This document shows positions 1,405 through 56,146 of a stretch of DNA of 64,000 nucleotides, piece after piece. The translations under genes were made by a program, and so were the position numbers. This stretch comes from Plasmodiophora brassicae. Taxonomy: Eukaryota. The first letter of the stretch is position 1. Every line of letters starts with the position of its first letter. The notes under the pieces are model-generated. The model saw nothing but the letters and a program-made list of their open reading frames with translations. It was not told where the DNA came from and did no database searches. Where the stretch lies: assembly GCA_036867785.1 (NCBI GenBank), contig CP145412.1:372001-436000 (forward strand). The letters are read 5' to 3'.

Positions 1405-2303
1405 GTGACGTCCCAACGGTGATGGTATATCAGCCGTGTAGTATAATCGTCTGTGTCCCCGACCTGCAGCTCCCACGGACGCCGTGCGGACTCCGTGCGC
1501 ACTCCGTGCATGTCCGTCATTCTTAGGGCGGCCTAGCCGGATCACAGCTATTCTTGTCTTATAGCTTGGAGCCGGCACAGAACCGACAACGTGGCACACT
1601 TGTAACCAAGACGAAGGAGCTTAACCGGGAAGAATACGTCCGTCTCCTTGTAGAAGAGGTCATTCCGGCTGTGAAGGAGAAGTGGCCGGCGGGAACGAAG
1701 TCACAGGCCATCTTCATCCAGCAAGACAATGCACGGCCTCATGCAAAGGTCGACGACGCTGCGGTTTATGCAGCTGGTCACTCGGACGGGTTCAACATCA
1801 ACTTGATGTGTCAACCCCCGAATAGCCCAGACTTTAACGTCTTAGACTTGGGTATCTTTGCTGCCTTGCAGGCCGAGCAGCTGCGGCAAGCCCCCAGAAC
1901 CATCGACGACCTGATCCATGTTGTCGTGGAAACGTACAACAACTACAATCCGGGCAAGATCAACGAGTGCTTTCTCTCTTGGCAGATGTCACTTCGTGAA
2001 GCAATCAAGGTGGGTGGGGCAAACACCTTCAAGCAGCTGAGAAGGACAATAATGAAGTGGATGTATTACGTACGGCGTGTGCGGCGGACGTTACAGTGGC
2101 GACGTAGTCGCCGACGGTGTAACGGTTGCCAACGCCGGCGGGCACGGAGTCGCGGAGTGCGTGACGGCGTTCACGTGCTGCAGGCATGTGCTGCTGGTCG
2201 TAGTGGATACGTTGTTCGACACGCCCCCTCCGTAAGCATCCACCGCAGTAGCCGAACTGCTGACGGTGTTAACAGGCACCTACGTTGCGCAACACCTTCC
2301 AAA

Positions 2304-3998
2304 CTGTTCGCTAAGAAGAAGGATGGATCGTTGCGTTTTTGCGTCGACTATCGCGGGCTGAACGCCGTAACGATCAAAAACCGGTATCCCGTTCCTCTCG
2401 TCGACCAGAGCCTTGCCCAACTAAGCTCGGCCAAGATATTCACCAAGATCGATCTCCGCTCGGCCTACCATCAAGTCCGGATCCGGGAAGGCGACGAATG
2501 GAAAACCGCGTTTCGCACACCGTTTGGACTCTTCGAGTACTTGGTGATGCCGTTCGGGCTGGCCAATGGACCCGCCGCATTCCAAGGGTTCATGAACGAC
2601 CTGTTCCGGGACTACTTGGACGTATTCGTCCTCGTGTACCTCGACGACATCTTGATATTTTCTCGCAATCCGGAGGACCATGAACGCCACGTTCGCCTCG
2701 TCCTGGAACGTCTCCGCGAGGCGAAGCTCTTTGGAAAGCTCAGCAAGTGCGCCTTCGACGCTTCCGAGGTCGAGTTCCTCGGCTACGTCATTTCTCACAA
2801 CGGCGTCCGAATAGACCAGGCCCGAATCGACACGATCCTAGCTTGGGAGCCGCCCGGCGATGCGCACGCTGTCCGAGTTTTCCTGGGGTTTGCCAACTTC
2901 TACCGCAAGTTCATCGCGCACTATGGAGAGATTGTCTTGCCACTCACCGACCTCACGAAGGACAACGTGGACTTTCACTGGGGAGCTGAAGAAGATGCCG
3001 CATTCCGCACCTTGAAAGCCGCGTTCACGTCTCCTCCGATCCTGACGCACTTCAATCCCGACCGGCCGTGCGAAGTCGAGACGGACGCATCCGACTTCGC
3101 CCTCGCCATGGTACTGTCGCAGCGCGACGACGACGGCGAACTGCACCCGATTGCGTTCTACTCGAGGAAGTTGACCCCGGAAGAGATTAACTACAAGATG
3201 CACGATAAGGAGCTACTACCGATCGTGGAAGGCTTCCAGAAATGGCGCCAGTTCCTGGACTCGCGCAGCACCAGACGCTCGTCTACAGCGACCACAGGAA
3301 CCTGCAATGGTTTCTCAGCAGCCAAAAGTTGTCGAGACGACAAGTTCGCTGGGCGCAACTCTTGGGCGAATTCGACTTCCGCATCGCCCATCGTCCGGGA
3401 CGCCTTCACGGCAAACCGGACGCATTGACGCGTCGACCAGAGTACCGGCCAACGAAGGCGGAGGCCGATGCAGCCCAGCAAGCAACCCAAGTATTGACGG
3501 CAGCTCACTTCATCACCACTGATTCCCCCGTTACCAACCACGTTCTTAACTTGATTGGCGAACCGCGCAGCACCGAGAGCTTGTGGGCCCGCATCCGAAC
3601 TAACCAAGCAACGGACCCCTTTGTTCAGAAGGTACTCGCACGCTTAGCCGCCCCGACACCACGGAACCGTCGCTTCCGCCAGGCCGACGGCATCCTCTAC
3701 CGGGACGATCGCGTGGTGGTCTCCGGCGACGATTGCAAGTTGGAAATCCTGAAATCGCTGCACGACGCGCAGACAGCTGGACACTTCGGCCTCGGAAAGA
3801 CGCTGCACCTCGTGCTCCGCGAGTTCTGGTGGCCAGGCCTCCGCGACTACGTCAAGCACTACATCAAATCGTGCGACGTCTGCTGCCGGTCGAAAACGCC
3901 ACGCCACAAACCGTCGGGACTTCTGATGCCACTTCCCCTTCCAACTCAGCTGTGGTCGTCAATCTCCATGGACTTCATCGTGAAGCTACCAACGTCGC
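2304..3998 (+). pseudogene. Ty3/Gypsy pol fragment (RT-RNaseH-integrase zinc finger, Tf1/sushi-like), one frameshift near 3260, no LTRs of its own
   Basis: LFAKKKDGSLRFCVDYRGLN, YLDDILIFS, VETDASDFA, YSDHRNL, HDAQTAGH...CDVC, SISMDFIVKLP; truncated at both ends. Confidence 0.92.
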
Positions 3999-6473
3999 AA
4001 AGCCGAATGTGAACGAGGTCTCCAGGAACTCGGCAGTCGTGCTCTCGAACGTGTCTTCCCGGTCCACGTCGTAGAACCGCCAAGCCTTCATGCCGGGCGT
4101 GAAACCGATAAACACAGCGCGAACACGACGAGGCTCCAACTTGCTCGGCTTCTTCGTGGCTGGATGCGGTCGCATGGCATAGGCATCGCAACCGTAGACA
4201 CGAAGGGCCGAGATGTTAGGTAGGGCGCGACGAGCAGCCTCGAACGATGTGCGACGCCCGGGAAGGACTGATCTCGGGTGGATGTTGTACAGTATCGCAG
4301 AGTAGGACAGCGACCAGGGCCACGTGGAGTCAGGCATGCGAGAGTGGCACCGGATTGAGCTTTCGATACCGCAGAGCGTGTGGTTGACGCTTTCAGCGCG
4401 GCCGTTCTGCTCGGGCGTGTACGGGACAGATTTGCGGTGCAGGATGCCGGACTCGTTGTAGAACAGGACGCACGCCTTGGAGTTGTACTCGCCGCCACCG
4501 TCGGTCTGGAACGTCCGGATACCACGTCCTTCCTGGTTGCGAAGACGCGCGTCATAGTGCTTGATGACGTCGAGCGCCTCCGATTTGCGACGTAGCAGAT
4601 AGACGGACAGGTACCGAGAGGAATCGTCAAGCATGGTCTGGTAGTACTCAAAGCCGCCGACACCGACGACAGGCCACCGTCCGGACAGATCGCTATGGAC
4701 GAGATCGCCAACACGACGCGCGCGCGACGTACTGGGAGGGAATGATGACCGTTTGCCCTTGGCGAGTAAACATGCAGCGCATGGACATCGATCTTGCGGC
4801 CTCGGGATTGGCCCGTCGAACTTCATGCCACGACAACGTTTGTGCAGGATGCGCAGGTTGCCGTAACCCAGGTGGCCGGTTCGAGCGTGCCAGACAGCTG
4901 GAGCTGCGGCGGTGACCTTAGCGACGCGGCATGAGACGCTGGATGCGATCAAGGAGCAGACTCGGGCAGAGTGAAGTGTGCCGGGCGCGGAGGTTGGAGC
5001 GGATAATGGAATCCGGTACAGGTTATCGTGTCCTCGTTGACTGACGGCCACTGGCTGACCGACGGGCGCCGTCCAGTTGGCCCCCGAGTAGATCTTCGCG
5101 GTATCGCCGTCGAACACGATCTTGTGACCTGATCTGGTGAGCTGGCCAACTGATACTAGCGCTTGGCCAAGTCGGGGAACGTGCAGCGAATCGATACTCG
5201 TCGCCTGGACATCCATGCCGAATGACGTCACGCCTCGACCGGAAGTGGTCGTACGCGACAGATCGGCTAGCTCAACTTCCGGTCCGGTGCCTTGGCGATA
5301 GCAGCTGAGATGTCGGCGCAGGGGCGTCATCGTCGTGGAACACGCTGAGTCCAGTAGGCCTACTGAGTTCGCGTACACGTCGATGGCGTGGCGTGCCGAC
5401 AAAGCACGCATCGGCTCGGGCGCCGGATCGATCGGATGAGCGCCAGACGTTGGATACTCGTTGGACGTTGGTGAGGATGTATTGCTTTTCGCGTTGCTGT
5501 CGCGGTACCAGATGTGTCGTTGCAGCGTGCATTCGCCGTTAGTGTGCTTGGATCCGGGATGGAAGACGCAGGACTCGTTGCGTCGTGGTCCACGGGGACG
5601 CGTCGATGTGGCGCAACTGGAGCGGTTGGCCGTTTGGAACGCGTCGTGTCGGTCCCGCACGTCTTGGACCCTGATCTCCTCGCTTGTCAACGACCCGACG
5701 ACCTCGGAGACACTGGGCAGCGTGTCCAGAGCACGATTGTGCAGGCCAGCGACGACGGCGTCGAGATCGGATGATGCGTTGGCCAAGATGAGGACGGCGA
5801 CCAATGCGTCGGTGAGGGACAGCATCTCGGTCGGTACCGTCGACCGGACGCGATGAGCCGCTGCTTGAACTCGGGCGGCGTACGTGGCGACCGACTCGCC
5901 GGGCATGTGCTGGACCGTGACGAGGTCGCGGACGGCGCGCACGACCGATGCCAGGGACGACGGGCTGTACGCCTGGAACAGCACGCGCCAGCACTTGGCA
6001 GCCGAGCCTGCCTGAAACAAAGACAATGCGGACGCGATCTTGTGGTCCAGCATGTGGACGAGTAGAATCTCGCGCGCGGCTGCCTCGAGAGCTGGGTCGT
6101 GTGCCGTACCGGTTGTCGCAGTCGGCGAGCCATCTTCGTTGATCCCGATGACGTCCGCGTACCCACGATTGCGAAACCAGAGTGCAGCTGTCTGAACCCA
6201 GGACGTGAACGAGTCGGGAGTACCGTCGAACTTGGGCATGGGCAGTCGGCCTGCGTCGCTTCGGCTGTGCGCCTCGGCGATGATCGGCATGGCCGGGGTC
6301 GATGGACAGCTGGTCGGACGCGCCAGCTGCTGCTGCAGGACACGGAGACGGTCGATCTTCTCCTGCCTGGCGATCGTTGCCTCCGCTTCGGCAATTCGGG
6401 TGTCGATCTCCTCGAGCGACAGATGACGCAGCGGGTCGTCATCCGTGTTAGGCGTCGCCTGGCGCTCGGCCAT
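3975..6473 (-). CDS. Copia A Gag-protease-integrase (832 aa, open, no RT/RNaseH)
   Basis: LLDSACSTTM protease, WHARTGH...CAAC, VHSDLSG/FQTDGGGEY/QNGRAE integrase core. Collinear with 27419-32461 up to FTFGF, then terminates in Gypsy-derived sequence. Confidence 0.9.
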   Translation of the reverse strand: MAERQATPNTDDDPLRHLSLEEIDTRIAEAEATIARQEKIDRLRVLQQQLARPTSCPSTPAMPIIAEAHSRSDAGRLPMPKFDGTPDSFTSWVQTAALWFRNRGYADVIGINEDGSPTATTGTAHDPALEAAAREILLVHMLDHKIASALSLFQAGSAAKCWRVLFQAYSPSSLASVVRAVRDLVTVQHMPGESVATYAARVQAAAHRVRSTVPTEMLSLTDALVAVLILANASSDLDAVVAGLHNRALDTLPSVSEVVGSLTSEEIRVQDVRDRHDAFQTANRSSCATSTRPRGPRRNESCVFHPGSKHTNGECTLQRHIWYRDSNAKSNTSSPTSNEYPTSGAHPIDPAPEPMRALSARHAIDVYANSVGLLDSACSTTMTPLRRHLSCYRQGTGPEVELADLSRTTTSGRGVTSFGMDVQATSIDSLHVPRLGQALVSVGQLTRSGHKIVFDGDTAKIYSGANWTAPVGQPVAVSQRGHDNLYRIPLSAPTSAPGTLHSARVCSLIASSVSCRVAKVTAAAPAVWHARTGHLGYGNLRILHKRCRGMKFDGPIPRPQDRCPCAACLLAKGKRSSFPPSTSRARRVGDLVHSDLSGRWPVVGVGGFEYYQTMLDDSSRYLSVYLLRRKSEALDVIKHYDARLRNQEGRGIRTFQTDGGGEYNSKACVLFYNESGILHRKSVPYTPEQNGRAESVNHTLCGIESSIRCHSRMPDSTWPWSLSYSAILYNIHPRSVLPGRRTSFEAARRALPNISALRVYGCDAYAMRPHPATKKPSKLEPRRVRAVFIGFTPGMKAWRFYDVDREDTFESTTAEFLETSFTFGFATLVASR

Positions 6474-6502: not shown

Positions 6503-6516
6503 TACGACTGTTAATC
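6503..6516 (-). promoter_or_regulatory. Copia A PBS GATTAACAGTCGTA (complementary to a tRNA-Asn GTT anticodon arm)
   Basis: Abuts the 5' LTR; identical 14-mer at 11709-11722 and 27378-27391. Confidence 0.8.
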
Positions 6517-7140
6517 TGAGAAGGACAATAATGAAGTGGATGTATTACGTACGGCGTGTGCGGCGGACGTTACAGTGGCGACGTAGTCGCCGACGGTGTA
6601 ACGGTTGCCAACGCCGGCGGGCACGGAGTCGCGGAGTGCGTGACGGCGTTCACGTGCTGCAGGCATGTGCTGCTGGTCGTAGTGGATACGTTGTTCGACA
6701 GCAGCCACACTTAGGCAAGCAACGCCTCCAGCGACAAGGATGCCTCCCAGTGTCCATTGCCTGTGATGGGGAAGCTGTTCGTGCAGCGAGGGCCGTTCTA
6801 GAGGCTCATGTTGTGGAGTAAATGCATTGGAACTCGTTACCTACCAATCATTCTCGGACATCTATTTTTAGAAACCGGACAATCATTCCCGGACGGAGGG
6901 AGTATTCAATTTGCTATCAAACCTCACTGTGCAATCGGTACGCCGTCCGACACTTCGCCCGGCGGCCCGAACCGACGTTAGGATGCGTCGCGGTTTTTAA
7001 CACACCAGTGCGGCTTAATTACGGCCTGGACCGATCTAATTACGTAATTACTGTAATTAATGCTATAATTACAGTAATTACTTTAATTAATTACTCGGAC
7101 AGTGTAGCGGTTTACCTCCGTCATGAAGGCTGTGGCATAT

Positions 7141-26274: not shown

Positions 26275-27173
26275 CGCCGGTCAGCTGTCGGATCGGGACC
26301 ATGCTGTGGTTGCGACCTTGAAATTCGGGCCTGATATGATGTCGAGCTGACTGGCCCTCGTAGTCGGTGGTCGCAAAAAAGTTCGAAGCCTTTTTTTGGA
26401 CAGGGGGGCACAGGATGCGCTAGGCACAGCGCATCGAAGTTTACGGTATTCATCAAGCGCATCTGCTGGTAACCCGTAGCATAACATGCGATTTGCCGCT
26501 GTACATTTCTGTATAGTCGGCAGGCCCGGGACGCCCAAGGCATACACTTCTGAACGAAGTAGTCGTCCTCACGAAATACTTCTTGCATGAGCCGCTCGAA
26601 TAGTATCCGTCTGGAACAACCGATTAGGAAAATTACTTTGGAAATCGCTCACGGTTGCCAGTACCTCATGCGGAATCGGCGACGAAACATTCGGGCGTCG
26701 TATAGGGGAACCCGATCGAAGTAATCCATCTGGATTCTCTTATCTGCCGCGATACGATCACGTGGAAGGTTGGGACGCCGACCAGGGAGTGAGCCGCCAC
26801 GCTTTTTCTCCCTAGATATTTCCACTGGAAACTTAAAAGTGCCGAACTAGTAGAGTTATCCGTAAACCCCCTAAACTGACAGCGAGTCACAGTCTGTTCA
26901 CCACCAGAATGGGTGCGCGGCCTCGTCATGAGGTTCCAAATATAGACTGGCAGGCAAACTTTGAAAGGCCTCTGGGACGGTCCCCAAAAAGTTTTCAACT
27001 TCACTCTGAGTTGCAACAGTGGTCGTCATGGACACGTCATCGTCGTCTTCCAGCGAGAGCGAGGTCGGCGTTCAGGCGATTGCGGCACCAGTAGGCCATG
27101 GCCAGCCCGACCAGTCCGAATTCAAGCCGAAGGGAAAGAAGGTTCGCGAGTTCGTGTCCACTGAGCACATCTC

Positions 27174-30100
27174 TGTCAAACAACATGTCCAGTACAACCA
27201 GCAGCACATGCCTGCAGCACGCCGTCACGCACTCCGAAACTCCGCGCTCGCCGCCGTTGGCAGCCGTTACGTCGTCGGCGACTACGTCGTCGGCGACTAC
27301 GTCGCCACTGTAACGTCCACCGTGCCGTTGCGCAAACGCCGTACGTAATACACTTCACTTCGCTATTGTCTTCCTTAGATTAACAGTCGTAGGCGCAGGC
27401 GCTTTACCTCTACTGGTCATGGCCGAGCGCCAGGCGACGCCGACGCCGAACGCGGATGACGACCCGTTGAATCACCTGACGATCGACGAGATCGACATCT
27501 GTCTAGCCGAAGCGGAGGCAAAGGTCGCAAGGCAGGAGAAGATCGACCGTCTTCGAATCCTGCAGCAGCAGCTGGCGCGCCCGCCCAGCTGTCCACCGAT
27601 CCCGTCCGTGCCGATGGTCGCCGAGGCGCACACCCGAAGCGACGCAGGTCGGCTACCGCTGCCCAAGTTCGATGGAACGCCAGACTCGTTCACGTCCTGG
27701 ATTCAGACCGCGGCCCTCTGGCTCCGCAACCGTGGATACGCGAACGTCATCGGGATCAACGAAGATGGCTCGCCGACCGCTACAACCGGTACGACGGACG
27801 ACCCAGCTCTGGAGGCGGCCGCGCGCGAGATTCTACTCGTCCACATGCTGGATCACAAGATCGCGTCTGCGTTGTCCTTGTTTCAAGCAGGATCGGCTGC
27901 CAAGTGCTGGCGCGTGCTGTTCCAGGCGTACAGCCCGTCGTCGCTGGCATCGGTCGTGCGCGCCATCCGCGACCTCGTCACGATCCAGCACACGCCCGGC
28001 GAATCAGTCGCCACTTACGCGGCCAGAGTTCAAGCAGCAGCTCATCGCGTCCGCGCAACGGTACCGACCGAAATGCTGTCCCTTACTGACGCTCTGGTTG
28101 CCGTCCTCATTCTGGCCAATGCATCATCCGACCTGGACGCGGTCGTCGCCGGCCTGCACAACCGTGCACTGGACACGCTGCCCAGTGTCTCCGAGGTCGT
28201 TGCGTCACTGACGAGCGAAGAGATTCGCATCCGAGACGTGCGGGACCGACAAGAATCGTTCCAGACGGCCAACCGATCCAGCTGCAATACGTCGACACGT
28301 ACCCGTGGACCTCGACGTAACGAGTCCTGCGTCTTTCATCCGGGATCGAAGCATACGAATGGCGAATGCAGCCTGCAGCGGCACATCTGGCATCGAGACA
28401 ACAACAACAACAACAACAGCAATACATCGTCACCAACGTCCCACGAGTATCCATCGTCTGGCGCTCTCCCGACAGATCCGGCATCCGAGCCAACGCGTGC
28501 ATTGTCGGCACGCCACTCCATCGACGCGAGCGCGAGCTCAATGGGACTATTGGACTCGGCCTGTTCCACAACGATGACACCCCTGCGCCAGCATCTCAGC
28601 CGTTATCGACGCGTCTCTGGACCAGAAGTCGAACTAGCTGATTTGTCGCGAACGACTACGTCCGGTCGGGGCGTGATGTCATTCGGCAAGGATGCCCAGG
28701 CGATGAGTATCGACTCACTGCACGTCCCACGACTTGGTCAAGCGCTTGTTTCAGTCGGACAACTCACCCGATCAGGCCACAAGATCGTATTCGACGGCGC
28801 CACCGCGACCATCTACTCGAAGGACAGCTGGACGGCACCCACCGGGCAGCCAGTGGCGATCAGCACCCGTGGACAAGACAACCTGTACCGGATCGCACTA
28901 TCAGCTCCATCCACCAACAACACGCAACCGACTGTACCAGCCTGTTCCCTGATCGTATCCGACATCGCCTGTCGCGCCGCAAAGGTCACCGCTGCATCTC
29001 CCGATCTGTGGCACGCACGAACCGGCCATCTCGGCTATGGCAATCTGAACATCCTGCGGAACCGCTGTCGTGGCATGACATTCGACGGCCCCATTCCCAA
29101 GCGTTCGGACCGGTGCCCATGCGAAGCCTGCCTCCTCGTCAAAGGTAAGCGTTCCTCATTTCCTCCGAGTAAGTCGCGGGCACTTCGTGTCGGCGATCTC
29201 GTGCACAGCGACTTATCCGGTCGGTGGCCCGTTGTCGGCATTGGCGGCTTCGAGTACTACCAGACGATGCTGGACGACTCCACGCGCTACCTGACGGTCT
29301 ACCTGCTTCGCCGCAAATCGGACGCCCTCGATGTCATTAAGAACTACGACGCGCGCCTTCGCAATCAGGAAGGGCGAGGTATCGGGGACTTCCAGACCGA
29401 CGGTGGCGGCGAGTTCAACTCGAAGGCATGCGTCCTGTTCTACAGCACGTCCGGCATCCTGCACCGCAAGTCGGTCCCGTACACACCGGAACAGAACGGC
29501 CGCGCCGAGAGCGTCAATTACACGCTCTGTTGCATCGAGCTATCGATCCGGTGTCATGCCCACATGCCCGACTCCACGTGGCCCTGGTCGCTGTCCTACT
29601 CTGCCGTCCTGTACAACATCCACCCGAGATCCGTCCTTCCCGGACGTCGCACATCGTTCGAGGCAGCTCGTCGCGCCCGACCTGACGTCTCGGCCCTTCG
29701 TGTCTACGGTTGCGATGCCTATGCCATGCGACCACATCCCCCCACGAAGAAGCCGAGCAAGTTGGAGCCTCGTCGTTTTCGCGCTGTGTTCATCGGTTTC
29801 ACGCCCGGCATGAAGGCGTGGCGGTTCTACGACGTGGACCGCGAAGACACGTTCGAGAGCACGACTGCCGAATTCCTGGAGAACTCGTTCACATTCGGTT
29901 TTGGAAGATCGGCCTCGGCCAGTTCATCATCAGCGCCACCATCCAGTCCCGAGTCGAGCCCTGCGCCGAACGTTGACACGATCGTCCCGACGCCCATCTC
30001 TTCCGACGCCATCATGGCACCTCTACCATCGACGTTAGCATCCTCTATCGCAACAGCCCCTCCCGAGCCTCCTTCACTTCCCGCTGCGTCATCGCCTTCC

Positions 30101-32525
30101 GAGATCGTCCGACCGTCACGTTCACCGTCTCCTGACCCTGCGTCCCAGAACGCGGACGCCCGTGCGCCTGACGGCGCCTGCCACATTTCTCGGTCAGCCG
30201 ACGTTCTGAATGCCCGCATAGACGACGTATCCACCGACGAAGACGATGATGACGCTGAAGATGATCCCGACTACGAAGATTCGGCGTCCAGCAACGACTC
30301 TCCCAACGAAGCTGCCGATCCCGTCGTCCACGATAATGCCGCCGAAGCTGATGTTGATCCCAATGCCATCGAAGTGCCACGTCCCCGCCGATCGAGTCGT
30401 CGTCGTCAACCGCCGGGTGAATGGTGGAAGGCGCCGGAGGCGGCCAATCGTTCGTCAACACGGTGGTCCTCGACAGTCGACGCCTGGTTCCAGAGTCCGA
30501 CCCTAACGCCACCGACGCAGCGCCCTCCTCGTCAATCACGCCGACAAATCCGCCATTGGCAACAGGTCGAGGAGCGACGTCTGATCGATCAAGCCATACG
30601 GTCCAACCGCAATCCCGCTCGCGGCGCCGCCGCCAAGGCATGTCGTGCTAGAGTACCCGCGCCGATCGATCCAGCCCGTCTACCGCGACCGGACCTGTCG
30701 AGCCTTAAAGCGACCGACATCCCTGTACCCGACTCGATGGCCGAGGCATTGTCATCGCCGTTCGCCGGCCACTGGTGGGACGCCGCCGTCTCGCAGATGG
30801 GGACGCTCGATTCCAAGGACACATTCGGCCCGCTCGTTGATCTCCCCAAAGGTAAGATCGCTGTCGGGTCCAAGTGGGTGTTCCGGGTCAAGTCAGCGCT
30901 CAGTGGCGACGGTGGCATCCGTAAGTTCAGCGCTCGTCTCTGCGCTCAGGGCTTCCGACAGCGCCCCGGCATTGACTTTGACGACACATTCGCGCCGACA
31001 GCTCGCGCCACCGCATTCCTCATCATCCTTGCGCTCGCAGCCCAACACGGGCTGCATCTTCGACAGGTTGATTGGGTGGCCGCCTACCTCAACGCCGATA
31101 TGCTCCACGACGTCTACATGCGCCAGCCCGATGGGTTTACTGATAACAACGTCCCATATCGCGTTCGCCAACTACGCAAGGCCCTATACGGTACGAAGCA
31201 AGGTGCCGAACGGTGGTACAAGACGCTTCGCTCGATGCTGCTGTCCCTGGGCTTCGAACCGATCATCGCGGACCCGTGCGTCTTTCGATATGATCGCGAT
31301 GGCAAGTTCATGGTCATGTCGGTGCACACCGATGACGGCCTGCTGGCGTACAACGACGTCGATTTCGCAGAGGTCGTCCTCGAGAAGCTCGCCACGATGG
31401 CCGAGATCACGGATCAGGGCGAACCATCGACGCTGCTCGGCATGCGCATCCGTCGCGAACCTGCCACCGGCGCCATCATGCTCGACCAGGCCGAGTACAT
31501 CGACAAGGTGTTGAGCGACTTCAACATGTCACATTGTCACCCGGTCGACACGCCACATCAACCTGGCGTTCACCTGACGAAATCGATGAGTCCACAGACG
31601 GACATCGAACGGGACGAAATGACGAACAAGCCTTACCTGAAGCTGATCGGATGTCTGACATGGCTCGCCCATCGGTGCCGTCCCGACATCGCGTATATCA
31701 CCAACGTGCTGGCCCAGTTCTCGTCGAATCCTGGTATACAGCATTGGCGTGCGGGGCAACGCGTCCTCAAGTACCTCGCCGGCACGAAGACGCACGGCAT
31801 TCGATACGAACGGCAACTCGAGGATCGCCTGGTCGCTTACGCCGATGCCGACTGGGCCTCGGATCCGGACACGCGACGTTCCCGTTCCGGTCATATCATT
31901 CTGCTGGCCGGCGGTCCCGTGCACTGGCAGTCGCGACGCCAGGACCTAGGCGCCGTTAAGGTTAGTCTGTCGTCAACACACGCTGAGATCAAATCGCTCT
32001 GCGCTGTTACCCGTCAGCTGGCCTGGATCCGGTCGTTCCTGGCGGAGATCGGCTTCCCGCGTCCCGGCCCGACGATCGTACACGAAGACAACCAAGGCGC
32101 GAAGGCCTGGTCTGGCTACCGTCGGATGGACGATCGAACGAAGGATATCGAGGTCCAGTTCCACTACACCAGAGAGGCCGTCGAGGCCGGTCTGATTATG
32201 GTCCACAAGTGCCCGTCCGCCGAGATGGCGGCCGACTACCTGACGAAGCCCGCCCTCAGCACTTCTTATCACGCGAACCTGATCCTGGCCGGCATCATCG
32301 ACACCGGTACCAGGGCGTGTGCTGCTGGAGGGGGCGTGTCAAACAACATGTCCAGTACAACCAGCAGCACATGCCTGCAGCACGCCGTCACGCACTCCGA
32401 AACTCCGCGCTCGCCGCCGTTGGCAGCCGTTACGTCGTCGGCGACTACGTCGCCACTGTAACGTCCACCGTGCCGTTGCGCAAACGCCGTACGTAATACA
32501 CTTCACTTCGCTATTGTCTTCCTTA
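27174..32525 (+). mobile_element. Intact Ty1/Copia element C
   Basis: LTRs 27174-27377 (204 bp) and 32337-32525 (189 bp), differing by a 15-bp duplication; TG...TA ends; TSD ATCTC; PBS 27378-27391; PPT GGAGGGGGCG. Confidence 0.97.
27419..32461 (+). CDS. Copia C polyprotein gag-PR-INT-RT-RNaseH, 1680 aa
   Basis: Uninterrupted ORF in Copia domain order; LLDSAC, FQTDGGGEF, HTDD, YADADWA. Confidence 0.96.
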   Translation: MAERQATPTPNADDDPLNHLTIDEIDICLAEAEAKVARQEKIDRLRILQQQLARPPSCPPIPSVPMVAEAHTRSDAGRLPLPKFDGTPDSFTSWIQTAALWLRNRGYANVIGINEDGSPTATTGTTDDPALEAAAREILLVHMLDHKIASALSLFQAGSAAKCWRVLFQAYSPSSLASVVRAIRDLVTIQHTPGESVATYAARVQAAAHRVRATVPTEMLSLTDALVAVLILANASSDLDAVVAGLHNRALDTLPSVSEVVASLTSEEIRIRDVRDRQESFQTANRSSCNTSTRTRGPRRNESCVFHPGSKHTNGECSLQRHIWHRDNNNNNNSNTSSPTSHEYPSSGALPTDPASEPTRALSARHSIDASASSMGLLDSACSTTMTPLRQHLSRYRRVSGPEVELADLSRTTTSGRGVMSFGKDAQAMSIDSLHVPRLGQALVSVGQLTRSGHKIVFDGATATIYSKDSWTAPTGQPVAISTRGQDNLYRIALSAPSTNNTQPTVPACSLIVSDIACRAAKVTAASPDLWHARTGHLGYGNLNILRNRCRGMTFDGPIPKRSDRCPCEACLLVKGKRSSFPPSKSRALRVGDLVHSDLSGRWPVVGIGGFEYYQTMLDDSTRYLTVYLLRRKSDALDVIKNYDARLRNQEGRGIGDFQTDGGGEFNSKACVLFYSTSGILHRKSVPYTPEQNGRAESVNYTLCCIELSIRCHAHMPDSTWPWSLSYSAVLYNIHPRSVLPGRRTSFEAARRARPDVSALRVYGCDAYAMRPHPPTKKPSKLEPRRFRAVFIGFTPGMKAWRFYDVDREDTFESTTAEFLENSFTFGFGRSASASSSSAPPSSPESSPAPNVDTIVPTPISSDAIMAPLPSTLASSIATAPPEPPSLPAASSPSEIVRPSRSPSPDPASQNADARAPDGACHISRSADVLNARIDDVSTDEDDDDAEDDPDYEDSASSNDSPNEAADPVVHDNAAEADVDPNAIEVPRPRRSSRRRQPPGEWWKAPEAANRSSTRWSSTVDAWFQSPTLTPPTQRPPRQSRRQIRHWQQVEERRLIDQAIRSNRNPARGAAAKACRARVPAPIDPARLPRPDLSSLKATDIPVPDSMAEALSSPFAGHWWDAAVSQMGTLDSKDTFGPLVDLPKGKIAVGSKWVFRVKSALSGDGGIRKFSARLCAQGFRQRPGIDFDDTFAPTARATAFLIILALAAQHGLHLRQVDWVAAYLNADMLHDVYMRQPDGFTDNNVPYRVRQLRKALYGTKQGAERWYKTLRSMLLSLGFEPIIADPCVFRYDRDGKFMVMSVHTDDGLLAYNDVDFAEVVLEKLATMAEITDQGEPSTLLGMRIRREPATGAIMLDQAEYIDKVLSDFNMSHCHPVDTPHQPGVHLTKSMSPQTDIERDEMTNKPYLKLIGCLTWLAHRCRPDIAYITNVLAQFSSNPGIQHWRAGQRVLKYLAGTKTHGIRYERQLEDRLVAYADADWASDPDTRRSRSGHIILLAGGPVHWQSRRQDLGAVKVSLSSTHAEIKSLCAVTRQLAWIRSFLAEIGFPRPGPTIVHEDNQGAKAWSGYRRMDDRTKDIEVQFHYTREAVEAGLIMVHKCPSAEMAADYLTKPALSTSYHANLILAGIIDTGTRACAAGGGVSNNMSSTTSSTCLQHAVTHSETPRSPPLAAVTSSATTSPL

Positions 32526-33198
32526 ATCTCTGCGCTGGCTGACAGCTACTACTCGCACTTCGAGCATTACTGCGAGGGCCGCAAGAAGGTGGTGACGCAA
32601 GTGATTCCAGGAGCGGTTTGGAAACAGGTCAGGTTCACGATTTGGGCAACTCGTACTCCTGGTATTGATTTATGTTTCAAGGTCTACGCCGAGTACCGAC
32701 AAAAGTTCCCCGATTCGACGTTCTCCGAGGCGAACTTGAAGGTTCGCCTTCGCGACACGCTCCTGGAGCTCAAAACCGGTACCTCCAACATGGAAAACGT
32801 GCCGAAACGCGAGCTTCAAGCCAAGTCGGTGATTGAGCGACTTAAGACGCTCGATTCACACTGCAAGCGGAACGTCATCCAGTTGCGTGACTCAATCGTG
32901 CAGCGGAAGACCCCCGAAAAGAAGCCACGGGTTGAGTCGCCGTCTCCCCCTGACACGGCGGCTCCGAAGAACAAGGCGCAGGCTCTGTCCTGTCAGGCAA
33001 TGGCGTTCACGCAGATCGCGAAAGCGATGCACGATCGAGGTCGCCTAACCGAGTCCCGGATCAAGCAAACGGAGCTCTCAAATCTCAAGGAGCTCCGTGA
33101 TGCGGGCGTCATTTCGGACGAGGAGTTCAGGCAGAAGGCCCGCACCCTTATGGGGCTTTAAACATGGCGTGTATTTCGATAAAGGTTCTTCGCGCTTG

Positions 33199-34335
33199 TC
33201 AATAATCCCCATCCCATCCGTACAGGTCCTGGTGTGGTACGCGCTCGATGTCGAATGCCTCCATATCCATTCGACGTCTATGGATGAAATTGGTGAGCCC
33301 GCATCCACAGCGAAACATGATTGAGAACTTGGGCTTCCTTAGGTCGAACCCTTTCATGAGTCTCATCCATTTGCGTTTAACTCCTCCAATTCCCCACTCG
33401 ACACGTACGCGATACCCGCCGTGCATCTTGTTGAATGCGCGGAGGACGTCATTGTCAATTCCCTCTAGCTCCAGATCACGGGCACGCCCCATGACAAACA
33501 TCTCCATTCCAAGATATCCTGGGTCCCCGAGAAGGTACTCGAAGTATTGTTCATCATCATCATGTGTGAAGTGTTCACGCCAGTTCGTGGCAAGGTTTGA
33601 CTGCCGGAGACAGTTCACATCGTGGAACGATCCAGGGTAGCCGGGGTCCACGTAGCGAATTAAGCCGAAGTGGTCGATGACAACGGTATTGTTCATGGCG
33701 TACATCTTCTTCCGGCCATTGAACCAACGTCCGTGTTCTGGGTTGTTGTGAGGTCTGGGAATCCTGACCAGAGTTCCATCGATGTTCCCAATGCAGCCTG
33801 GCATTTCCGGTAACGTTCTACCCAGCATCTTCCGCTCGTGTTCGTCAGGCCAGTATATCTCCTGGTCCAGGATCGCCTCATTGATGCAGGTAGCAACGAA
33901 TATTGCGTCGTCACAATGGGATGACTTCGCGCAATTCCACTTCCCGCTGTCGTAGACAAAGTTGTTGTCGTGCTTGAAGTGTAGAATGAAACTGAGAAGC
34001 CGCTGTTCAGGACTGAGCTTGGGTGGTCGACCACCAGCACCTCGAATCTCGCCCGTACTACGAGCATAGAGCTCAATTACTGGACACACAAGCGAGCACA
34101 ACTCCTCGAATTCGCTTGCGGTGAAGTTCGTTGTCGCCCTAAATAACGATGGCCGTCGTAGAAGATATGCGAGCTCATCGCGAACGCCAATGTCTGGGTC
34201 AACATACACCTGGTTATTAACGTTGTCGTCAAGTTCGTAGGGGTTGAAGAACTCATCCGTGTTGCCAATAGCCGCCATACAGCACCACGCCACCGCGTCA
34301 ATCTCAAAGGAGTCATCGCTATCGTCAGAATGCAT
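33199..34335 (-). CDS. HARBI1-like Harbinger DDE transposase, apparently intact
   Basis: CIGNIDGTLV, GSFHD, LLGDPGY, RVRVEWGIGGVK; likely ATG 34335 (MHSDDSDD). Confidence 0.88.
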   Translation of the reverse strand: MHSDDSDDSFEIDAVAWCCMAAIGNTDEFFNPYELDDNVNNQVYVDPDIGVRDELAYLLRRPSLFRATTNFTASEFEELCSLVCPVIELYARSTGEIRGAGGRPPKLSPEQRLLSFILHFKHDNNFVYDSGKWNCAKSSHCDDAIFVATCINEAILDQEIYWPDEHERKMLGRTLPEMPGCIGNIDGTLVRIPRPHNNPEHGRWFNGRKKMYAMNNTVVIDHFGLIRYVDPGYPGSFHDVNCLRQSNLATNWREHFTHDDDEQYFEYLLGDPGYLGMEMFVMGRARDLELEGIDNDVLRAFNKMHGGYRVRVEWGIGGVKRKWMRLMKGFDLRKPKFSIMFRCGCGLTNFIHRRRMDMEAFDIERVPHQDLYGWDGDY

Positions 34336-36649: not shown

Positions 36650-39600
36650 ATGGCACGACGATTGAAGCCCGGGCAGCAGCCAATGACGGAGGGGCTGGAC
36701 CCGAGCTCACTGAAGAAGTTGGAGGAGCAGTACACGGACTACTGTCGCATCACGTCGGAGGCGGAGGCGTACCTGCCGGAGCGAGAACGACGCGGCCCAG
36801 TCTCAATCCGGAACTGCTTCAAGTTTCATGAACGACAGGCAATTGCGATGGACGAGCTGGGACTCCAGGATGAGCAGGAGATGACGGACGCTCACCTCGA
36901 GGCGTGGATGGCCGAGGAGATTGCACAGCTGGGGAGCCGAATGGCGCACAATCTGAAGGCGGCGGAGAAGTTGCTGGCGAACGAACTGGCCATGAACACG
37001 AAACTGCCATTCCTGATCGACAGGATCAAGTCGATACGATTCGAGTTGCGGCGTCTGGTGTCCCAAAACGGCCTGGAGTGGATGAACGACGACCAGGCGG
37101 GGAGGCGCGTCTTCGGCAAGCTAGTGGTGGATGCCATTAAGCCGATTCCGCTGCAGAAACACATGGTCGACTGGGTAGAACGGGATCCAGAAGCGCGCAC
37201 TGGCGACATCGAGGGTCTGTTCCAGGAAGCCATCCGATACGCGAATTCGGTCGTCGACGTGCTGGGCAACCCGAGCACATCTGACAAGGAGACGGTCGCC
37301 CAACTGAGGGCAATCGCGAAGGGCAATGGCGGCAACTACCCTCGCGGTGCTAAGGTCAACAAGCGAGGCGGTCGACGGTCCCCGGAACCCACTCCCAAGC
37401 GTCAACGATTCGGTGGCGGATTCCAGCGCAACGGACGCGGTCATGAGCGCGAAGGCCCGAACGGACGACGCGGAGAAGGTCATGGTCGACACAAGACTGA
37501 AGGACACGGTCGGGACACGCCGGGAGGACAACAGGAAGTCGTACCTGCGGGAGGCGGAAGCCAGCGAAACGGAGGACGTAATCGAGAAGATGAGCATGAC
37601 GGCAACCGTGACACGAAGAAATCCCCCAAAGGTGGTTGTTTCCGATGCAAGGGCGATCACTACGTGAGCGACTGCCCGCAACCGCCGACGGAGGAGGAGC
37701 GCCGTGGTCGTGGCAACCGCGGAATAAACGCGGCACGTGTTCGAACGTACGATGGTGATGCAAGCGATGACACTCTGAGGGCAACCATCGGGGAGACCAC
37801 ATTCGAGTGCGCTCTGGATTCCGAATGTCGTGGAGGCAACGTCATACCGGCGAACATTGCAGAACGGCTTGACGATGCAGCTGCGATACAGGAGATTGAT
37901 CCGATCGAGATTGTCCTGGATGATGACAAGACCACTGAGGTCTGCTCGAAGGTCCTTGCCGTTCCGATCATGAAACTGCACGGCGAACACGGGACATTGA
38001 CGCTGTACAACATGCGATTCTACATCTCGACGATGATTGCGAAGACGCTGCTCGGAAACCCGATTCTCACGGCTATGGGAATTGATCCCAAACAGCAGTT
38101 GGAGTCGCTGATGTCAACGAACGATGGGGTCATGCAGTTCGATGCTGACTCGCTCGAGACGGTGGAGAGGGTGACGGCCAAGATGATCGAACTGAGCGCC
38201 AACCACGGATGCAACCCCTACGCGAACAGCGAAGGCGAGCCAACGCGCAGTGAGATCGATCTCGGAAAGGTTGATCCGTCTGGAATCAGCAAGGCTGTCA
38301 ACGATATGATCAAGCAGGCTGAGAAGAATGGCATTTCGAGGCAAGGCTTGAGGCGACTGCGGAAGATCTTGAACAAGCACATGAACGAATTCCGTACGAC
38401 GCTGGGGTCTGACCCACCTGTGGACGTGGAACCACTGAGGACGGACCTGAAGGACGGTGCCACACCATATCGGTGCAAGCCGCGCATGTACAATCCGAAG
38501 CAAAAGGAGTTCTTGACGGACATGATACGGATGCTGAAGGACAACGGCCTGATCTTTGCGAATATGAACTCGAAGTGGGCCAGTCCTGTCCTGATCGTCA
38601 AGAAGCCACACGGAGACGGCTACCGACTATGCGTCGACCTTCGACAGGTGAACCTGCGATCTGAGCCAACTGTCTGGCCCATGCCGAACATCGAGGCGGG
38701 AGCCCGCAAGCTCGAAGGTATGTCGTGCTTCTTCAGCTTGGATGCCTTCAAGGGCTTCTGGTTGATGCCTCTGGACAAATCTTGTCAAGAGATGTTTTCA
38801 TTCATGACAGACGATTCGGTTTGGACACCTACACGAAGCATCCAGGGAGGACTGAACACGGCCCCGCAATTCCAAGCAAGGATGGTGAACATCTTCGACG
38901 ACCTGATGGATCGAATGATGGTCTGGATTGATGATCTGCTGGGATTCGCGAAGACGGAGGCCGAGCTTCTGGAACTGCTGGCCAACGTATTCGAACGGGC
39001 ACGCGAAGTCGGACTGAAGTTCAACCCTACGAAATGCACGATCTTCGCCAGGGAGCTGGTCTGGTGCGGGAAGATCTACTCTGGCAACGGCATTCGACAT
39101 GACCCGGAACGGATAGCAGCTCTGACAAGCATGCCGGAGCCGAAGACGGTTAAAGACCTGCAGCAACTGATGTGGGCGGTGGGATGGATGCGCACGAGCA
39201 TCCCGGACTACCCGTACATCATCGAGCCACTACAGGAGGTCGTTGACCGGGCGAATGAGGAGCTGAAACGAACGAAGTCCAGTTCTTATGCCTCATTGAC
39301 GGTGGACGCGATGGGCTGGTCTGAACGACAACGAGAAGCATTCGAGAAGCTGCGGGCGGTGCTGGTCGAACACGTGCAACTGGCCTACCCCAAGAAGGAT
39401 TTCCAGACCTGCCTCTTCACGGACGCAAGCGAATTCGCATGGTCGGCGGTCGTGACTCAGATTCCAATGGAGGACATCGAATTGCCGATCAGTGAGCAAC
39501 GACATGAACCGCTGGCGTTCTACGGGAAACGCTTCGACAACACGCAGCTACGATGGCCTATCATCGAGAAAGAGGCAGCGGCGATCGTCCAGGCGACTAC

Positions 39601-41691
39601 GCGAGGCGATTTCTTGCTGCAAACCGGACGTGAGTTCCTGCTCTACTGCGATCATCGGAATCTACGATACATCTTCAACAACGACATGGAGATGAAGAAG
39701 CACACAGCCGCAAAGCTGGAGCGGTGGTCCGTTCATCTGCAAGGATTCCGGTACAAAATGGTGGACATCAGCGGGGAGGACAATGCGTGGGCAGATCTAC
39801 TGACGCGGTGGGGCGCGGGTCGAATCGCGCTTACGTGTCCGGCAACTCGAGTCATGTCCATGGAAGACCTGCGAGTAACCCCCATGGCGCACGACGGATT
39901 CGAATGGCCTCGTGAAGCCGACATACGACAATCCCAGAAGCTGCTGACCGACGACGAGAAGGCAGCATTCAAGGCGCAATGGGATGATCGCGACAAACTG
40001 TGGAAATCTGACTCTGGACAGGTGTTAATTCCAAGCCATGACTGTAACGCCTGAACGGGCGCGTTGGCAAATGGCGCCTCAAATGGCGCCGACGACAATA
40101 AAGTCCGAGACGACCGCGGACCGACGAGACGACCGCGGACCGACGGCAGTCGGTCAACGGTCGTCTCGGACTTTATTGTCGTCGGCGCCATTTGAGGCGC
40201 CATTTGCCAACGCGCCCGTTCAGGCGTTACAATGACGACGCAGAGACGTTACGACTACGGATCCTGGTCGTGGCGCACTGCGGCAGTGCTATGCATCGTG
40301 GCGGGACAACCACCAGAGAAGCGGTTATGAGACGATTCCGCTGGGCTGGAGTGGAGGAGCACGTGCAACAAATGTGCGATCAGTGCATGCACTGCGTCAC
40401 CACTCGAGGAGGAGAACGGATTCCGCGGCCGCTGGGTCAGGCTGTTCACGGTCACGAAAGGTTTCAGGTGCTGCATATGGACTACATGTACGTCGAGCCG
40501 GTTCGCGGAGCGGACCACGACTACAAGTACATATTGCTGCTCAAGGACGACTTCTCGGGACTCGTCCGCCTGATTCCTTGCACGAACGCGACGGCCCGGA
40601 CTGCAGCTGATTCCCTGATGGCGTGGAACGCTGACTTCGGGACGCCAGAGATCCTGGTTACCGATGGTGGTTCACATTTCACCGCTGAGGTGATGGAGGA
40701 TTTGAGTCGGCTACGTCACGTTGCGCATCACATCACGCTGGCGTACTGCCCATGGTCGAATGGAACGGTCGAACGGGCGAATGGAACGGTCGTGGAGATG
40801 CTGAGGAGCCTACTGAATGAGAACCAGATCGACACCCACAACTGGCCGTACGCATGTCAGCTGGTGCAACACGCCATGAACCATACGCCTTCAAAGCGTC
40901 GTGGAGGTCATGCACCGGTGACGGCGGCGTTTGGCATCCAACCGGAGAATCCTCTAGACCTGATCTGGGACTTGAAGGCTAGCAATTGGCGACCTGTGAA
41001 TCCTGCGACCATTACTCAGCACATCGAGAAGATGAAGGACGATTTCGACAACATACACAAGGATGTCGAGATGGGCAAAGAGAAGCGGCATCGAGCCAAT
41101 GTCCAGCAGCGCAACAGGCAGCTGCGTCCTGGAGACGATGAAGCGTTCATTCCAGGTGACTACGTCTTGTGCGCACGACCGAACATGGGCCCGGGGAACA
41201 AACTGATCGCCAAGTGGAATGGCCCGTTCCGTGTGCTGCAGCGACTGAACGATCAAGTGTACTTGCTGTACGATCCTCTTCACGAGAAGGAGTTTCGGGC
41301 GCACATCCAACGGATCAGACGATACGCTGATGGGAAGTTGAACATGACGGCGACGATGAAGAAGCATCTTCAGCACTCGAATCATAAGCTCTTGGTGGAG
41401 AATCTAGCTGACTGCCGATACAATGCGAGCGAGAAGCGAGTCGAAATCAAAGTGCTCTGGGAAGGATTCGAGGAATCGGACGCCACATGGGAACCGGCGG
41501 ACATCATAATCGAGGACGTGCCGACGATGGTTCGTGATCTGTATGACCGACTGGGAGATGACCACCCTCAGGCGGAGGAGTTGCGAATACTGTTGAACTC
41601 GGCGGCGACGAACGGGAATCGCCAGCCTGCCTCGAAACGACGTCAAGCAAAAGGAGCGCGACGTCAGAGGACTAAACGACCACGGAATTGA
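36650..41691 (+). pseudogene. G2 Gag-Pol with chromodomain, broken only by the 40043-40231 insertion
   Basis: CFRCKGDHYVSDC, ALDSEC, VWIDDLLG, FTDASE, VTDGGSHF, KVLWEGFEESDATWEP. Excision restores PSHDDAETLRLRIL. Confidence 0.93.
40043..40231. mobile_element. 189-bp foldback MITE with TGT...ACA ends and 5-bp TSD
   Basis: 74-bp perfect TIRs; TSD ATGAC (40038-40042/40232-40236). Confidence 0.93.
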
Positions 41692-55963: not shown

Positions 55964-56146
55964 TGTAGATCGTGTATAGAGAACCTCAGCGTCCTCGTTC
56001 CCAGATCTCCTGATCCTTCTCCCCCATGCCGTCCGGCCTTCCCGCATGCCGTACGGACTCTCCTGGTCTTAGGGCTACCTCTCCTAGATGCTGTTCTTGG
56101 TATCTCTGGCTGCGACAGGGCATGCTGCACTGCTCCACCGTCTACA
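55964..56146 (-). mobile_element. Solo LTR of the G2 family inside the G3 RNaseH region
   Basis: 183 bp, reverse complement of the G2 LTR with ~5 substitutions; 4-bp TSD CTTT; excision restores EKEAFAIVEGC. Confidence 0.95.

What the first reader, a model, noticed from the sequence alone, without database searches (positions are those of the whole stretch)
27174..32525. Copia lineage apparently primed by a half-molecule of tRNA-Asn(GTT)
Seen: Copia A (6503-6516, minus), B (11709-11722) and C (27378-27391) have diverged LTRs but the identical 14-mer GATTAACAGTCGTA abutting the 5' LTR. Its complement TACGACTGTTAATC reads as an anticodon arm with a CT-GTT-AA loop (Asn). Established: Drosophila copia and yeast Ty5 use a tRNA-iMet fragment ending just 3' of the anticodon (PBS GGTTATG...). 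The register here is the same (anticodon + 4 nt). Inference: the same half-tRNA mechanism switched to tRNA-Asn. In B the downstream CGCTCT could extend pairing into the D arm.
Basis: partly seen in the sequence, partly recalled or inferred. Interest (0 to 1): 0.8.

Follow-up and report, generated by a model that had tools for sequence, protein, structure and literature searches.

The report
Copia elements primed by half tRNA-Asn
Three recently inserted Copia retrotransposons in what looks like the clubroot parasite's genome start reverse transcription from a site that matches the anticodon arm of asparagine tRNA rather than a tRNA's 3' end, a rare but already described way of priming.

Summary
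GATTAACAGTCGTA occurs exactly three times. Each copy directly follows the 5' LTR of a Ty1/copia element that has 5-bp target duplications, a shared polypurine tract and near-identical LTR pairs. It is the longest invariant block across LTRs that are only 59-76% alike.

Its complement is a real tRNA-Asn(GUU) word. Of 122 exact hits in viral contigs, 50 lie in ARAGORN tRNA-Asn genes, all in sense, covering positions 27-40. Other tRNA types there are at least 2, mostly at least 4, mismatches away.

There is no TGG start and no Tf1-like self-complement. The closest metagenomic relative keeps GATTAACA..., and outgroups carry half-iMet sites in the same register.

The host, Plasmodiophora brassicae by protein names, could not be checked properly. 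Its sequencing runs hold a high-copy 73-nt tRNA-like contig that aligns across the arm, but the mismatch positions were not shown.

Half-tRNA priming with tRNAs other than iMet, including Asn-GTT in rust-fungus elements, is already in print (PMC10886601; PMC6317226; PMC4139406). This is a new member of a known kind and of modest interest.

The parts
27174..27377 (+). Element C, 5' LTR (204 nt, TG...TA)
   Evidence: Direct repeat with 32337-32525. Identical to it apart from a 15-nt indel. Flanked by the TSD ATCTC at 27169-27173.
27378..27391 (+). Element C, primer-binding site GATTAACAGTCGTA, complementary to tRNA-Asn(GUU) positions 27-40
27419..32461 (+). Element C, single intact gag-pol ORF of 1680 aa (gag, protease barrel, integrase, RVT_2)
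32327..32336 (+). Element C, polypurine tract GGAGGGGGCG
   Evidence: The same tract is present in A (2222-2231, minus strand) and B (21863-21872).
32337..32525 (+). Element C, 3' LTR (189 nt), followed by the TSD ATCTC at 32526-32530
11519..11708 (+). Element B, 5' LTR (190 nt); TSD ATGAC at 11514-11518
11709..11722 (+). Element B, primer-binding site (same 14-mer)
21873..22062 (+). Element B, 3' LTR (188/190 identical to the 5' LTR); TSD ATGAC at 22063-22067. The interior of B is split by a nested Gypsy at about 14158-19502.
6517..6700 (-). Element A, 5' LTR (184 nt); TSD GCTGC at 6701-6705
6503..6516 (-). Element A, primer-binding site (same 14-mer)
3975..6473 (-). Element A, gag-protease-integrase ORF (832 aa); the Copia RT/RNase H part is missing
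2038..2221 (-). Element A, 3' LTR (184/184 identical to the 5' LTR); TSD GCTGC at 2033-2037

Best explanation
A, B and C are members of one Ty1/copia lineage. By the names of the nearest proteins, the host genome is Plasmodiophora brassicae. The minus-strand primer-binding site of these elements pairs with the anticodon arm of cytoplasmic tRNA-Asn(GUU): the 5' strand of the stem (27-31), the whole loop (32-38) and the first two bases of the 3' strand (39-40).

A paired 3'-OH is needed to start DNA synthesis into U5. The primer is therefore most likely a 3'-truncated tRNA-Asn (a 5' 'half') ending at nucleotide 40, as in Drosophila copia and yeast Ty5 with tRNA-iMet. The lineage switched tRNA species from iMet to Asn and kept the register.

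Shown here:
- the position of the site and its conservation;
- its exact identity to natural tRNA-Asn arms;
- the absence of a 3'-end-type or self-priming site;
- the same type of site in the closest relative, and half-iMet sites in outgroups;
- recent transposition.

Inferred:
- that the host's tRNA-Asn has this arm;
- that the tRNA is cleaved after nt 40;
- that pairing stops at nt 27 because position 26 (often m2,2G in eukaryotes, from recall) ends plus-strand copying of the primer.
For: 1. Anatomy.
- The 14-mer abuts the 5' LTR in three elements that have 5-bp TSDs, a shared PPT and a Copia domain order.
- The LTR pairs are 184/184 identical (A), 188/190 identical (B), and identical apart from one 15-nt indel (C). 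Primers for these elements were therefore available in this genome recently.

2. Selection.
- The site is the longest invariant block although the LTRs are only 59-76% alike.

3. Identity.
- 50 hits lie in ARAGORN tRNA-Asn(gtt) genes, all in sense. In 49 of the 50 the word starts 7 nt before the anticodon as ARAGORN numbers it. In the one gene cut by the end of its locus ARAGORN gives 8, but the word holds GTT at the same place.
- In those genes the word is followed by GTA or GTG, or once GTT (L080), which completes most or all of the stem.
- 3 more hits lie in odd intron-bearing calls labelled tRNA-Ile(aat).
- All other tRNA types in the same loci are at least 2 mismatches away (Arg-tct). The remaining types are at least 4 away.
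- Internal check: the last two bases of the word (TC) pair with the GA that closes the 5' strand.

4. Alternatives excluded.
- There is no TGG after the LTR.
- The longest complement between the first 20 nt after the LTR and the element's own LTR is 5-7 nt, at different places in each element.

5. Comparison.
- Locus L120 is the best of the 80 metagenome loci kept, at 42% protein identity. It has an LTR followed by GATTAACATTCGAAC, which is 12/14 identical. It keeps the anticodon, A37, A38, U39 and C40.
- L120 falls in a 10-row clade with the P. brassicae elements (SH-aLRT 99).
- Outgroups in the next clade carry GGTTATGAGCCC (L122) or TGGTATCAGAGC (L123).
- L121, L160, L181, L187 and L193 carry GGTTATGGGCCC. 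It directly follows the LTR in L121, L160, L181 and L187 once the repeat limits are shifted by 1-2 bases; L193 has a 2-nt spacer.

6. Host.
- Four DNA runs of the organism, from four studies, each hold one high-depth 73-74-nt contig (depth 236-1091).
- It aligns to a tRNA-Asn reference from about position 6 to 46, which includes the whole anticodon arm, with 4 other letters and 1 gap.

7. Precedent.
- Half-tRNA priming in Copia, and switching between tRNA species, are in print.
Against: - The host's tRNA-Asn sequence was not read. No genome is held and the window has no tRNA gene.
- In one search the places of the 4 mismatches are not listed, so the arm may differ.
- That contig ends in A where the tRNA-Asn genes I recall have G73. 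It could therefore be another tRNA.
- L120's site implies A at tRNA position 32, which is unusual, or a mismatch.
- Only two members of the 10-row clade (the P. brassicae elements and L120) could be checked for their site. The others are proteins without DNA.
- No physical evidence for a cleaved primer exists here.
- t6A37 and Q34 (recalled as typical of tRNA-Asn) might weaken pairing, although tRNA-iMet halves face the same t6A37.
Confidence: 0.75

Rival explanations
1. The site binds the 3' end of some other small RNA of the host (not tRNA-Asn), and the likeness to an Asn anticodon arm is coincidental.
For: The host's RNAs could not be inspected. The tRNA-like contig in the host's runs has an untypical last base, and its mismatch positions are unknown.
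Against: - A 14/14 match in the right strand and register to 50 natural tRNA-Asn genes.
- Other tRNA types are at least 2-4 mismatches away.
- The relative L120 keeps exactly the anticodon-loop part.
- Related Copia elements use the same register with iMet.
Confidence: 0.1
2. The site was inherited from, or transferred with, an element adapted to another host's tRNA-Asn. In P. brassicae the pairing is imperfect, or a neighbouring tRNA such as Arg(UCU) or Lys is used.
For: - The stem bases of tRNA-Asn differ among organisms (from recall).
- The nearest non-Asn tRNA in the sample is only 2 mismatches away (Arg-tct).
- The contig has 4 unplaced differences.
Against: - Three elements with diverged LTRs keep all 14 bases.
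- They have inserted very recently: the LTR pairs are identical or nearly so. The site is therefore under current selection in this genome.
Confidence: 0.08
3. Whole tRNA-Asn anneals through its anticodon arm, for packaging or as an RNA chaperone, while DNA synthesis is primed in another way such as self-priming.
For: No cleaved tRNA was shown here.
Against: - There is no self-complement of more than 5-7 nt between the LTR and the site.
- There is no second candidate site with TGG next to the LTR.
- The site abuts U5 exactly where a primer's 3' end must sit.
Confidence: 0.05
4. The shared 14-mer is simply common descent of three related copies and has no function.
For: A, B and C are relatives (62-87% protein identity).
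Against: - The flanks on both sides have diverged (LTRs 59-76% identical, leaders differ), yet the block is exact.
- A relative at 42% protein identity keeps 12/14 bases next to an unrelated LTR.
Confidence: 0.02

Closest known systems
Drosophila copia and yeast Ty5 (half tRNA-iMet priming; Kikuchi 1986 and Ke 1999, seen only as titles in a reference list)
   Same: [quoted passage not shown] The primer's 3' end is two bases into the 3' strand of the stem. The same register is seen in related metagenome loci with GGTTATGGG/GGTTATGAG.
   Different: The tRNA species is Asn(GUU), not initiator Met. The host is a rhizarian parasite. No biochemical proof exists here.
[quoted passage not shown]
   Same: 3'-truncated tRNA primers of several species within Copia, with primer switching during evolution. 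Asn-GTT is named as one of them. TSDs are 5 bp.
   Different: - Those are fungal elements, and the Asn case is reported for non-autonomous Helenus.
- The text is inconsistent between Asp and Asn.
- Here the carrier includes an autonomous-looking element with an intact 1680-aa ORF in a non-fungal host.
- In my tree, basidiomycete Copia proteins (P0017, P0021) sit just outside the clade.
Plant Bianca lineage (1/2 tRNA-Ile) and Osser, Bryco and Gymco-II (1/2 tRNA-Met) (Neumann 2019, PMC6317226, passages read)
   Same: Half-molecule tRNA primers are confined to Ty1/copia lineages, and the primer type is a lineage character.
   Different: Different tRNA and different hosts. That survey lists tRNA-Asn only among 3'-end primers (2% of elements).
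[quoted passage not shown]
   Same: A Copia-group element with a site homologous to an internal region of a non-initiator tRNA.
   Different: The tRNA is Arg(UCU), and some families are described as having an extensive region of homology. Here the tRNA is Asn and the match is 14 nt.

Membership tests
Ty1/copia (Pseudoviridae) LTR retrotransposon | Polyprotein with gag, protease, integrase before RT (RVT_2 type) and RNase H | tested here: met
   Element C (P0001): Retrotran_gag_2 135-272, Pol_BBD 377-453, gag_pre-integrs 520-575, rve 595-690, SH3_retrovirus 754-825, RVT_2 1139-1380. B has the same parts in two pieces. A lacks the RT.
Ty1/copia (Pseudoviridae) LTR retrotransposon | Paired LTRs, 5-bp target-site duplication, polypurine tract before the 3' LTR | tested here: met
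   TSDs are GCTGC, ATGAC and ATCTC. The PPT GGAGGGGGCG is present in all three.
Half-tRNA (3'-truncated tRNA) primed Copia | Site directly after the 5' LTR, without TGG, complementary to a tRNA anticodon stem-loop and ending 1-2 nt into the 3' strand of the stem | tested here: met
   14/14 match to positions 27-40 of 50 natural tRNA-Asn(gtt) genes from viral contigs. Specific against the other tRNA types in those loci.
Half-tRNA (3'-truncated tRNA) primed Copia | The host's own tRNA carries the complementary arm | tested here: inconclusive
   No genome is held. The host's runs hold a high-copy 73-nt tRNA-like contig aligned over the arm with 4 unplaced mismatches and 1 gap.
Half-tRNA (3'-truncated tRNA) primed Copia | The primer is physically a cleaved tRNA whose 3' end is at about nt 39-40 | not testable with these tools
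   This needs primer mapping on strong-stop DNA, or small-RNA data from particles.
3'-end tRNA primed LTR elements | Site begins with TGG (complement of CCA) within a few bases of the LTR | tested here: not met
   The sequence after the LTR is GATTAAC... in all three. More distant relatives do have TGGTATCAGAGC.
Tf1-type self-priming elements | About 11 nt at the start of the transcript (within the LTR) complementary to the site | tested here: not met
   The longest exact complement is 5-7 nt, at a different LTR position in each element.

The most novel reading that the evidence does not exclude
A whole Copia clade, found in a rhizarian plant parasite and in at least one unknown soil or freshwater eukaryote (L120), is primed by a 5' fragment of tRNA-Asn cut after nucleotide 40. 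Its 14-nt site runs exactly from the cut to position 27, because the modified base at position 26 stops copying of the primer. Together with the fungal, plant and yeast cases, this would mean that Copia elements can adopt almost any tRNA while keeping one fixed cleavage register. That points to a conserved and still unidentified nuclease step acting on the 3' strand of the anticodon stem.
Probability: 0.4. Interest if true: 0.45.

Novelty: new member of a known kind. Interest (0 to 1): 0.3.

Why it matters
- It adds a non-fungal, non-plant host lineage, and an apparently autonomous and recently active element, to the short list of Copia lineages that prime from a tRNA half other than initiator Met.
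- It shows that the register (3' end at nt 40) is kept when the tRNA species changes.
- For annotation, standard PBS finders that look only for tRNA 3' ends will miss these elements in P. brassicae and its relatives.
- It does not open a new mechanism.

Tried and rejected
- Whole genome of the window: not held. The window has no tRNA gene.
- Earlier findings of the scan: nothing.
- The look-up of sequencing runs: 20 of the 24 listed runs hold the element. No RNA holder is listed; six runs are only guessed to be RNA, so nothing can be said on expression.
- Read laying on a giant-virus tRNA-Asn reference: it shows a compatible tRNA-like contig in all four runs, but table 3 lists no letters, so the arm could not be read. 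My reasoning about which contig positions the table hides is a guess and is not used as evidence.
- The search for related loci in viral contigs: 69 pattern matches, none a relative.
- Self-priming: rejected.
- Extension of pairing into the D arm (CGCTCT in B, GCGCT in A and C): the motifs are at different offsets and not collinear, so rejected as evidence.
- My own idea that all half-tRNA primers decode ANN codons and share t6A37: rejected, because Tyr and Asp are reported as primers.
- Literature searches for an Asn half primer:
  - searches gave nothing relevant;
  - led to Kojima 2024;
  - searched the site's own letters and found only an unrelated PCR primer;
  - (P. brassicae papers) found no mention of tRNA or PBS.
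- Neuveglise 2002 is not held.
- Supplements and figures (Neumann's additional files, Kojima's Figure 3) could not be seen and may list further Asn-type sites.
- 46 of the 48 metagenome loci with repeat pairs were read for their site. L172 and L167 were left out as messy or duplicate. 32 of the 80 loci had no LTR pair. Of those, L120 and L122 were read by eye, as was L123, whose true site lies beyond the repeat limit used.

Full report
**What is there**

The 14-mer GATTAACAGTCGTA occurs exactly three times in the window: 6503-6516 on the minus strand, 11709-11722, and 27378-27391. No further site appears even with two mismatches allowed, and none of 100 shuffles reaches three matches.

All three sites sit at the first base after the 5' LTR of an LTR retrotransposon.

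- **Element C.** LTRs are at 27174-27377 and 32337-32525. The TSD is ATCTC. A polypurine tract GGAGGGGGCG lies at 32327-32336. One uninterrupted ORF of 1680 aa runs from 27419 to 32461.
- **Element B.** LTRs are at 11519-11708 and 21873-22062. The TSD is ATGAC. B is split by a nested chromodomain Gypsy.
- **Element A** (minus strand). LTRs run 6700->6517 and 2221->2038, and the TSD is GCTGC.

Pfam gives the Copia order gag, protease barrel, integrase, RVT_2.

The LTR pairs are 184/184 identical in A, 188/190 in B, and identical apart from one 15-nt indel in C. All three are therefore young insertions.

Between elements the 5' LTRs are only 59-76% alike. In the alignment of LTR plus leader, the site is the longest invariant block.

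**Which organism**

The nearest proteins are named Plasmodiophora brassicae: P0002 at 85% identity over the full length, P0003 at 99%, and P0006. This fits the sequencing runs that hold the element, which are one coded organism plus 'plant metagenome'. No genome is held for the window, and the window contains no tRNA gene.

**Is the complement a tRNA-Asn arm?**

I scanned the viral contig collection for the complement.

- ARAGORN places 50 of the 122 hits inside tRNA-Asn(gtt) genes of phages and giant viruses.
- All 50 are in sense. In 49 of them the word starts 7 nt before the anticodon as ARAGORN numbers it. The one exception (L058) is cut by the end of its locus, and there too GTT sits at the same place within the word.
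- The word is therefore the stem 27-31 (TACGA), the loop 32-38 (CTGTTAA) and positions 39-40 (TC). The following bases are GTA or GTG, or once GTT (L080), which complete most or all of the stem.
- Three more hits lie in odd intron-bearing calls labelled Ile(aat). The remaining 69 hits are outside tRNA genes.
- Among the 135 other tRNAs in the same loci, the best match has 2 mismatches (Arg-tct). Every other type has at least 4.

It is a natural tRNA-Asn(GUU) anticodon arm, not merely something that looks like one.

**Other kinds of primer**

There is no TGG after the LTR, so the site is not of the 3'-end type. The longest exact complement between the first 20 nt after the LTR and the element's own LTR is 5-7 nt, at a different place in each element. 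That argues against Tf1-like self-priming.

**Relatives**

It returned 80 loci at 24-42% identity.

48 of the 80 loci had LTR-like repeat pairs. I read the junctions of 46 of them.

- Most have TGGTATCAGAGC.
- L121, L160, L181, L187 and L193 have GGTTATGGGCCC. It directly follows the LTR in L121, L160, L181 and L187 once the repeat limits are shifted by 1-2 bases. L193 has a 2-nt spacer.
- L122 (GGTTATGAGCCC) and L123 (TGGTATCAGAGC) were read by eye.

The closest locus, L120 (42% identity), is a permuted contig. In it an LTR (TGTTGAG...GCGCAATA) is followed by GATTAACATTCGAAC. That is 12 of 14 identical to the P. brassicae site. The two differences fall at tRNA positions 32 and 28. The anticodon, A37, A38, U39 and C40 are kept.

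I built a quick maximum-likelihood tree of the RT/RNase H region with 37 rows. Loci with HSPs under 350 residues or with stops were left out.

- The P. brassicae elements, P0002, P0004, P0005, P0007, P0008, P0009, P0010 and L120 form one clade (SH-aLRT 99).
- The next clade out (SH-aLRT 95) holds L122 (half-iMet), L123 (3'-end iMet) and two basidiomycete proteins.

The simplest reading is that an ancestor of the 10-row clade changed from iMet to Asn and kept the register. Only two branches of that clade could be checked for their site.

**The host's tRNA**

As a substitute for a genome, I laid the contigs of four DNA runs of the organism (from four studies) on a giant-virus tRNA-Asn gene, L037:5343-5418.

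- Each run has exactly one high-depth contig of 73-74 nt, at depths 236, 670, 1091 and 295.
- It aligns to 5371-5412. That is roughly tRNA positions 6-46 and includes the whole anticodon arm.
- The alignment has 4 other letters and one missing base in the D loop.
- The unaligned end has a regular T arm and acceptor strand.

The length and depth fit a multi-copy tRNA gene. However, the tool did not list where the four differences lie, and the last base is A where the tRNA-Asn genes I recall have G. This result is compatible with the hypothesis but does not test it.

**Mechanism**

I commit to priming by a 3'-truncated tRNA-Asn ending at nt 40 (confidence 0.75).

The steps shown are the position of the site, its conservation, its identity to tRNA-Asn arms, the exclusion of the other two primer types, the comparative pattern and recent activity.

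The steps inferred are the host arm, the cleavage, and my suggestion (from recall) that the site ends at position 27 because a modified G26 stops plus-strand copying of the primer.

It would need a 4-nt bulge, and A and C have no collinear equivalent.

**What is known**

- Copia and Ty5 use the anticodon stem-loop of tRNA-iMet. I saw these papers only as titles in a reference list.
- Neumann 2019 reports 1/2 tRNA-Met in Osser, Bryco and Gymco-II and 1/2 tRNA-Ile in Bianca, and lists tRNA-Asn only among 3'-end primers (passages read).
- A Candida review reports sites homologous to internal regions of tRNA-Arg(UCU) and tRNA-iMet (passages read).
- Kojima 2024, section 3.6 (read in full), reports rust-fungus Copia and Helenus elements using the anticodon loop of Tyr, Ile, Asp and iMet. 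[quoted passage not shown] Its text wavers between Asp and Asn, and I could not see its Figure 3.
- My searches found no report of this site in P. brassicae or any rhizarian. Supplements were closed.

**Verdict**

The phenomenon is a new member of a known kind, not a new mechanism. Interest is 0.3.

Noticed in passing
window 2222-3999 (inside element A): Element A matches the Copia polyprotein only up to residue 828. Between that point and its 3' LTR lies a Gypsy-type RT, RNase H and integrase zinc-finger fragment on the opposite strand (Pfam hits on ORFs 1554-3428 and 3242-4012). A nevertheless has identical LTRs and a clean TSD. It is either a chimeric non-autonomous element that moved as a unit, or a later rearrangement.
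   Followed up: partly
window about 14158-19502 (inside element B): A nested chromodomain Gypsy on the minus strand, with identical 206-nt repeats and an intact 1629-aa ORF (RVT_1, RNase H, integrase, chromo). Its exact ends were not fixed.
   Followed up: partly
window 11432-11518 and 22063-22187: Element B sits inside a 10-bp minisatellite (TTATGACGCC), which continues on both sides. The TSD ATGAC is part of the repeat unit.
   Followed up: partly
window 8221-11033: A fourth Copia of another family, degenerate (about 30% identity to element C, frameshifted). No LTRs were found, so no primer site could be read.
   Followed up: partly
window 27174-27377 vs 32337-32525: The 5' LTR of C carries a 15-nt duplication that is absent from its 3' LTR. 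The two are otherwise identical.
   Followed up: yes
window 33199-34335, 50337-52037, 36650-41691, 54816-58048: The rest of the window is also mostly mobile DNA: a DDE_Tnp_4 (Harbinger-like) transposase, a DDE_3 transposase with an HTH domain, and further chromodomain Gypsy pieces. Few ordinary genes were seen (a PHD-finger ORF and a Sad1/UNC ORF near 59339-61485).
   Followed up: no
runs X1, X3, X11, X12 laid on L037:5343-5418: One 73-74-nt contig of very high depth, tRNA-like, is present in all four runs. It has a T stem TCGCG/CGCGA and ends in A. It is probably a multi-copy tRNA gene of the organism, but its anticodon could not be read.
   Followed up: partly
L060, L070, L086 (viral contigs): Three phage-like loci carry the same Asn-type arm inside a roughly 100-nt gene that ARAGORN calls tRNA-Ile(aat) with an intron. 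These may be miscalled or unusual tRNAs.
   Followed up: no
L120 (metagenome contig, 5019 nt): The contig is circularly permuted: leader, ORF, LTR, primer site, part of the leader, a second LTR, then flank. This may be an assembly loop or tandem elements sharing an LTR. Its leader is full of a repeated ACACTACAGTGTATAT-like motif.
   Followed up: no
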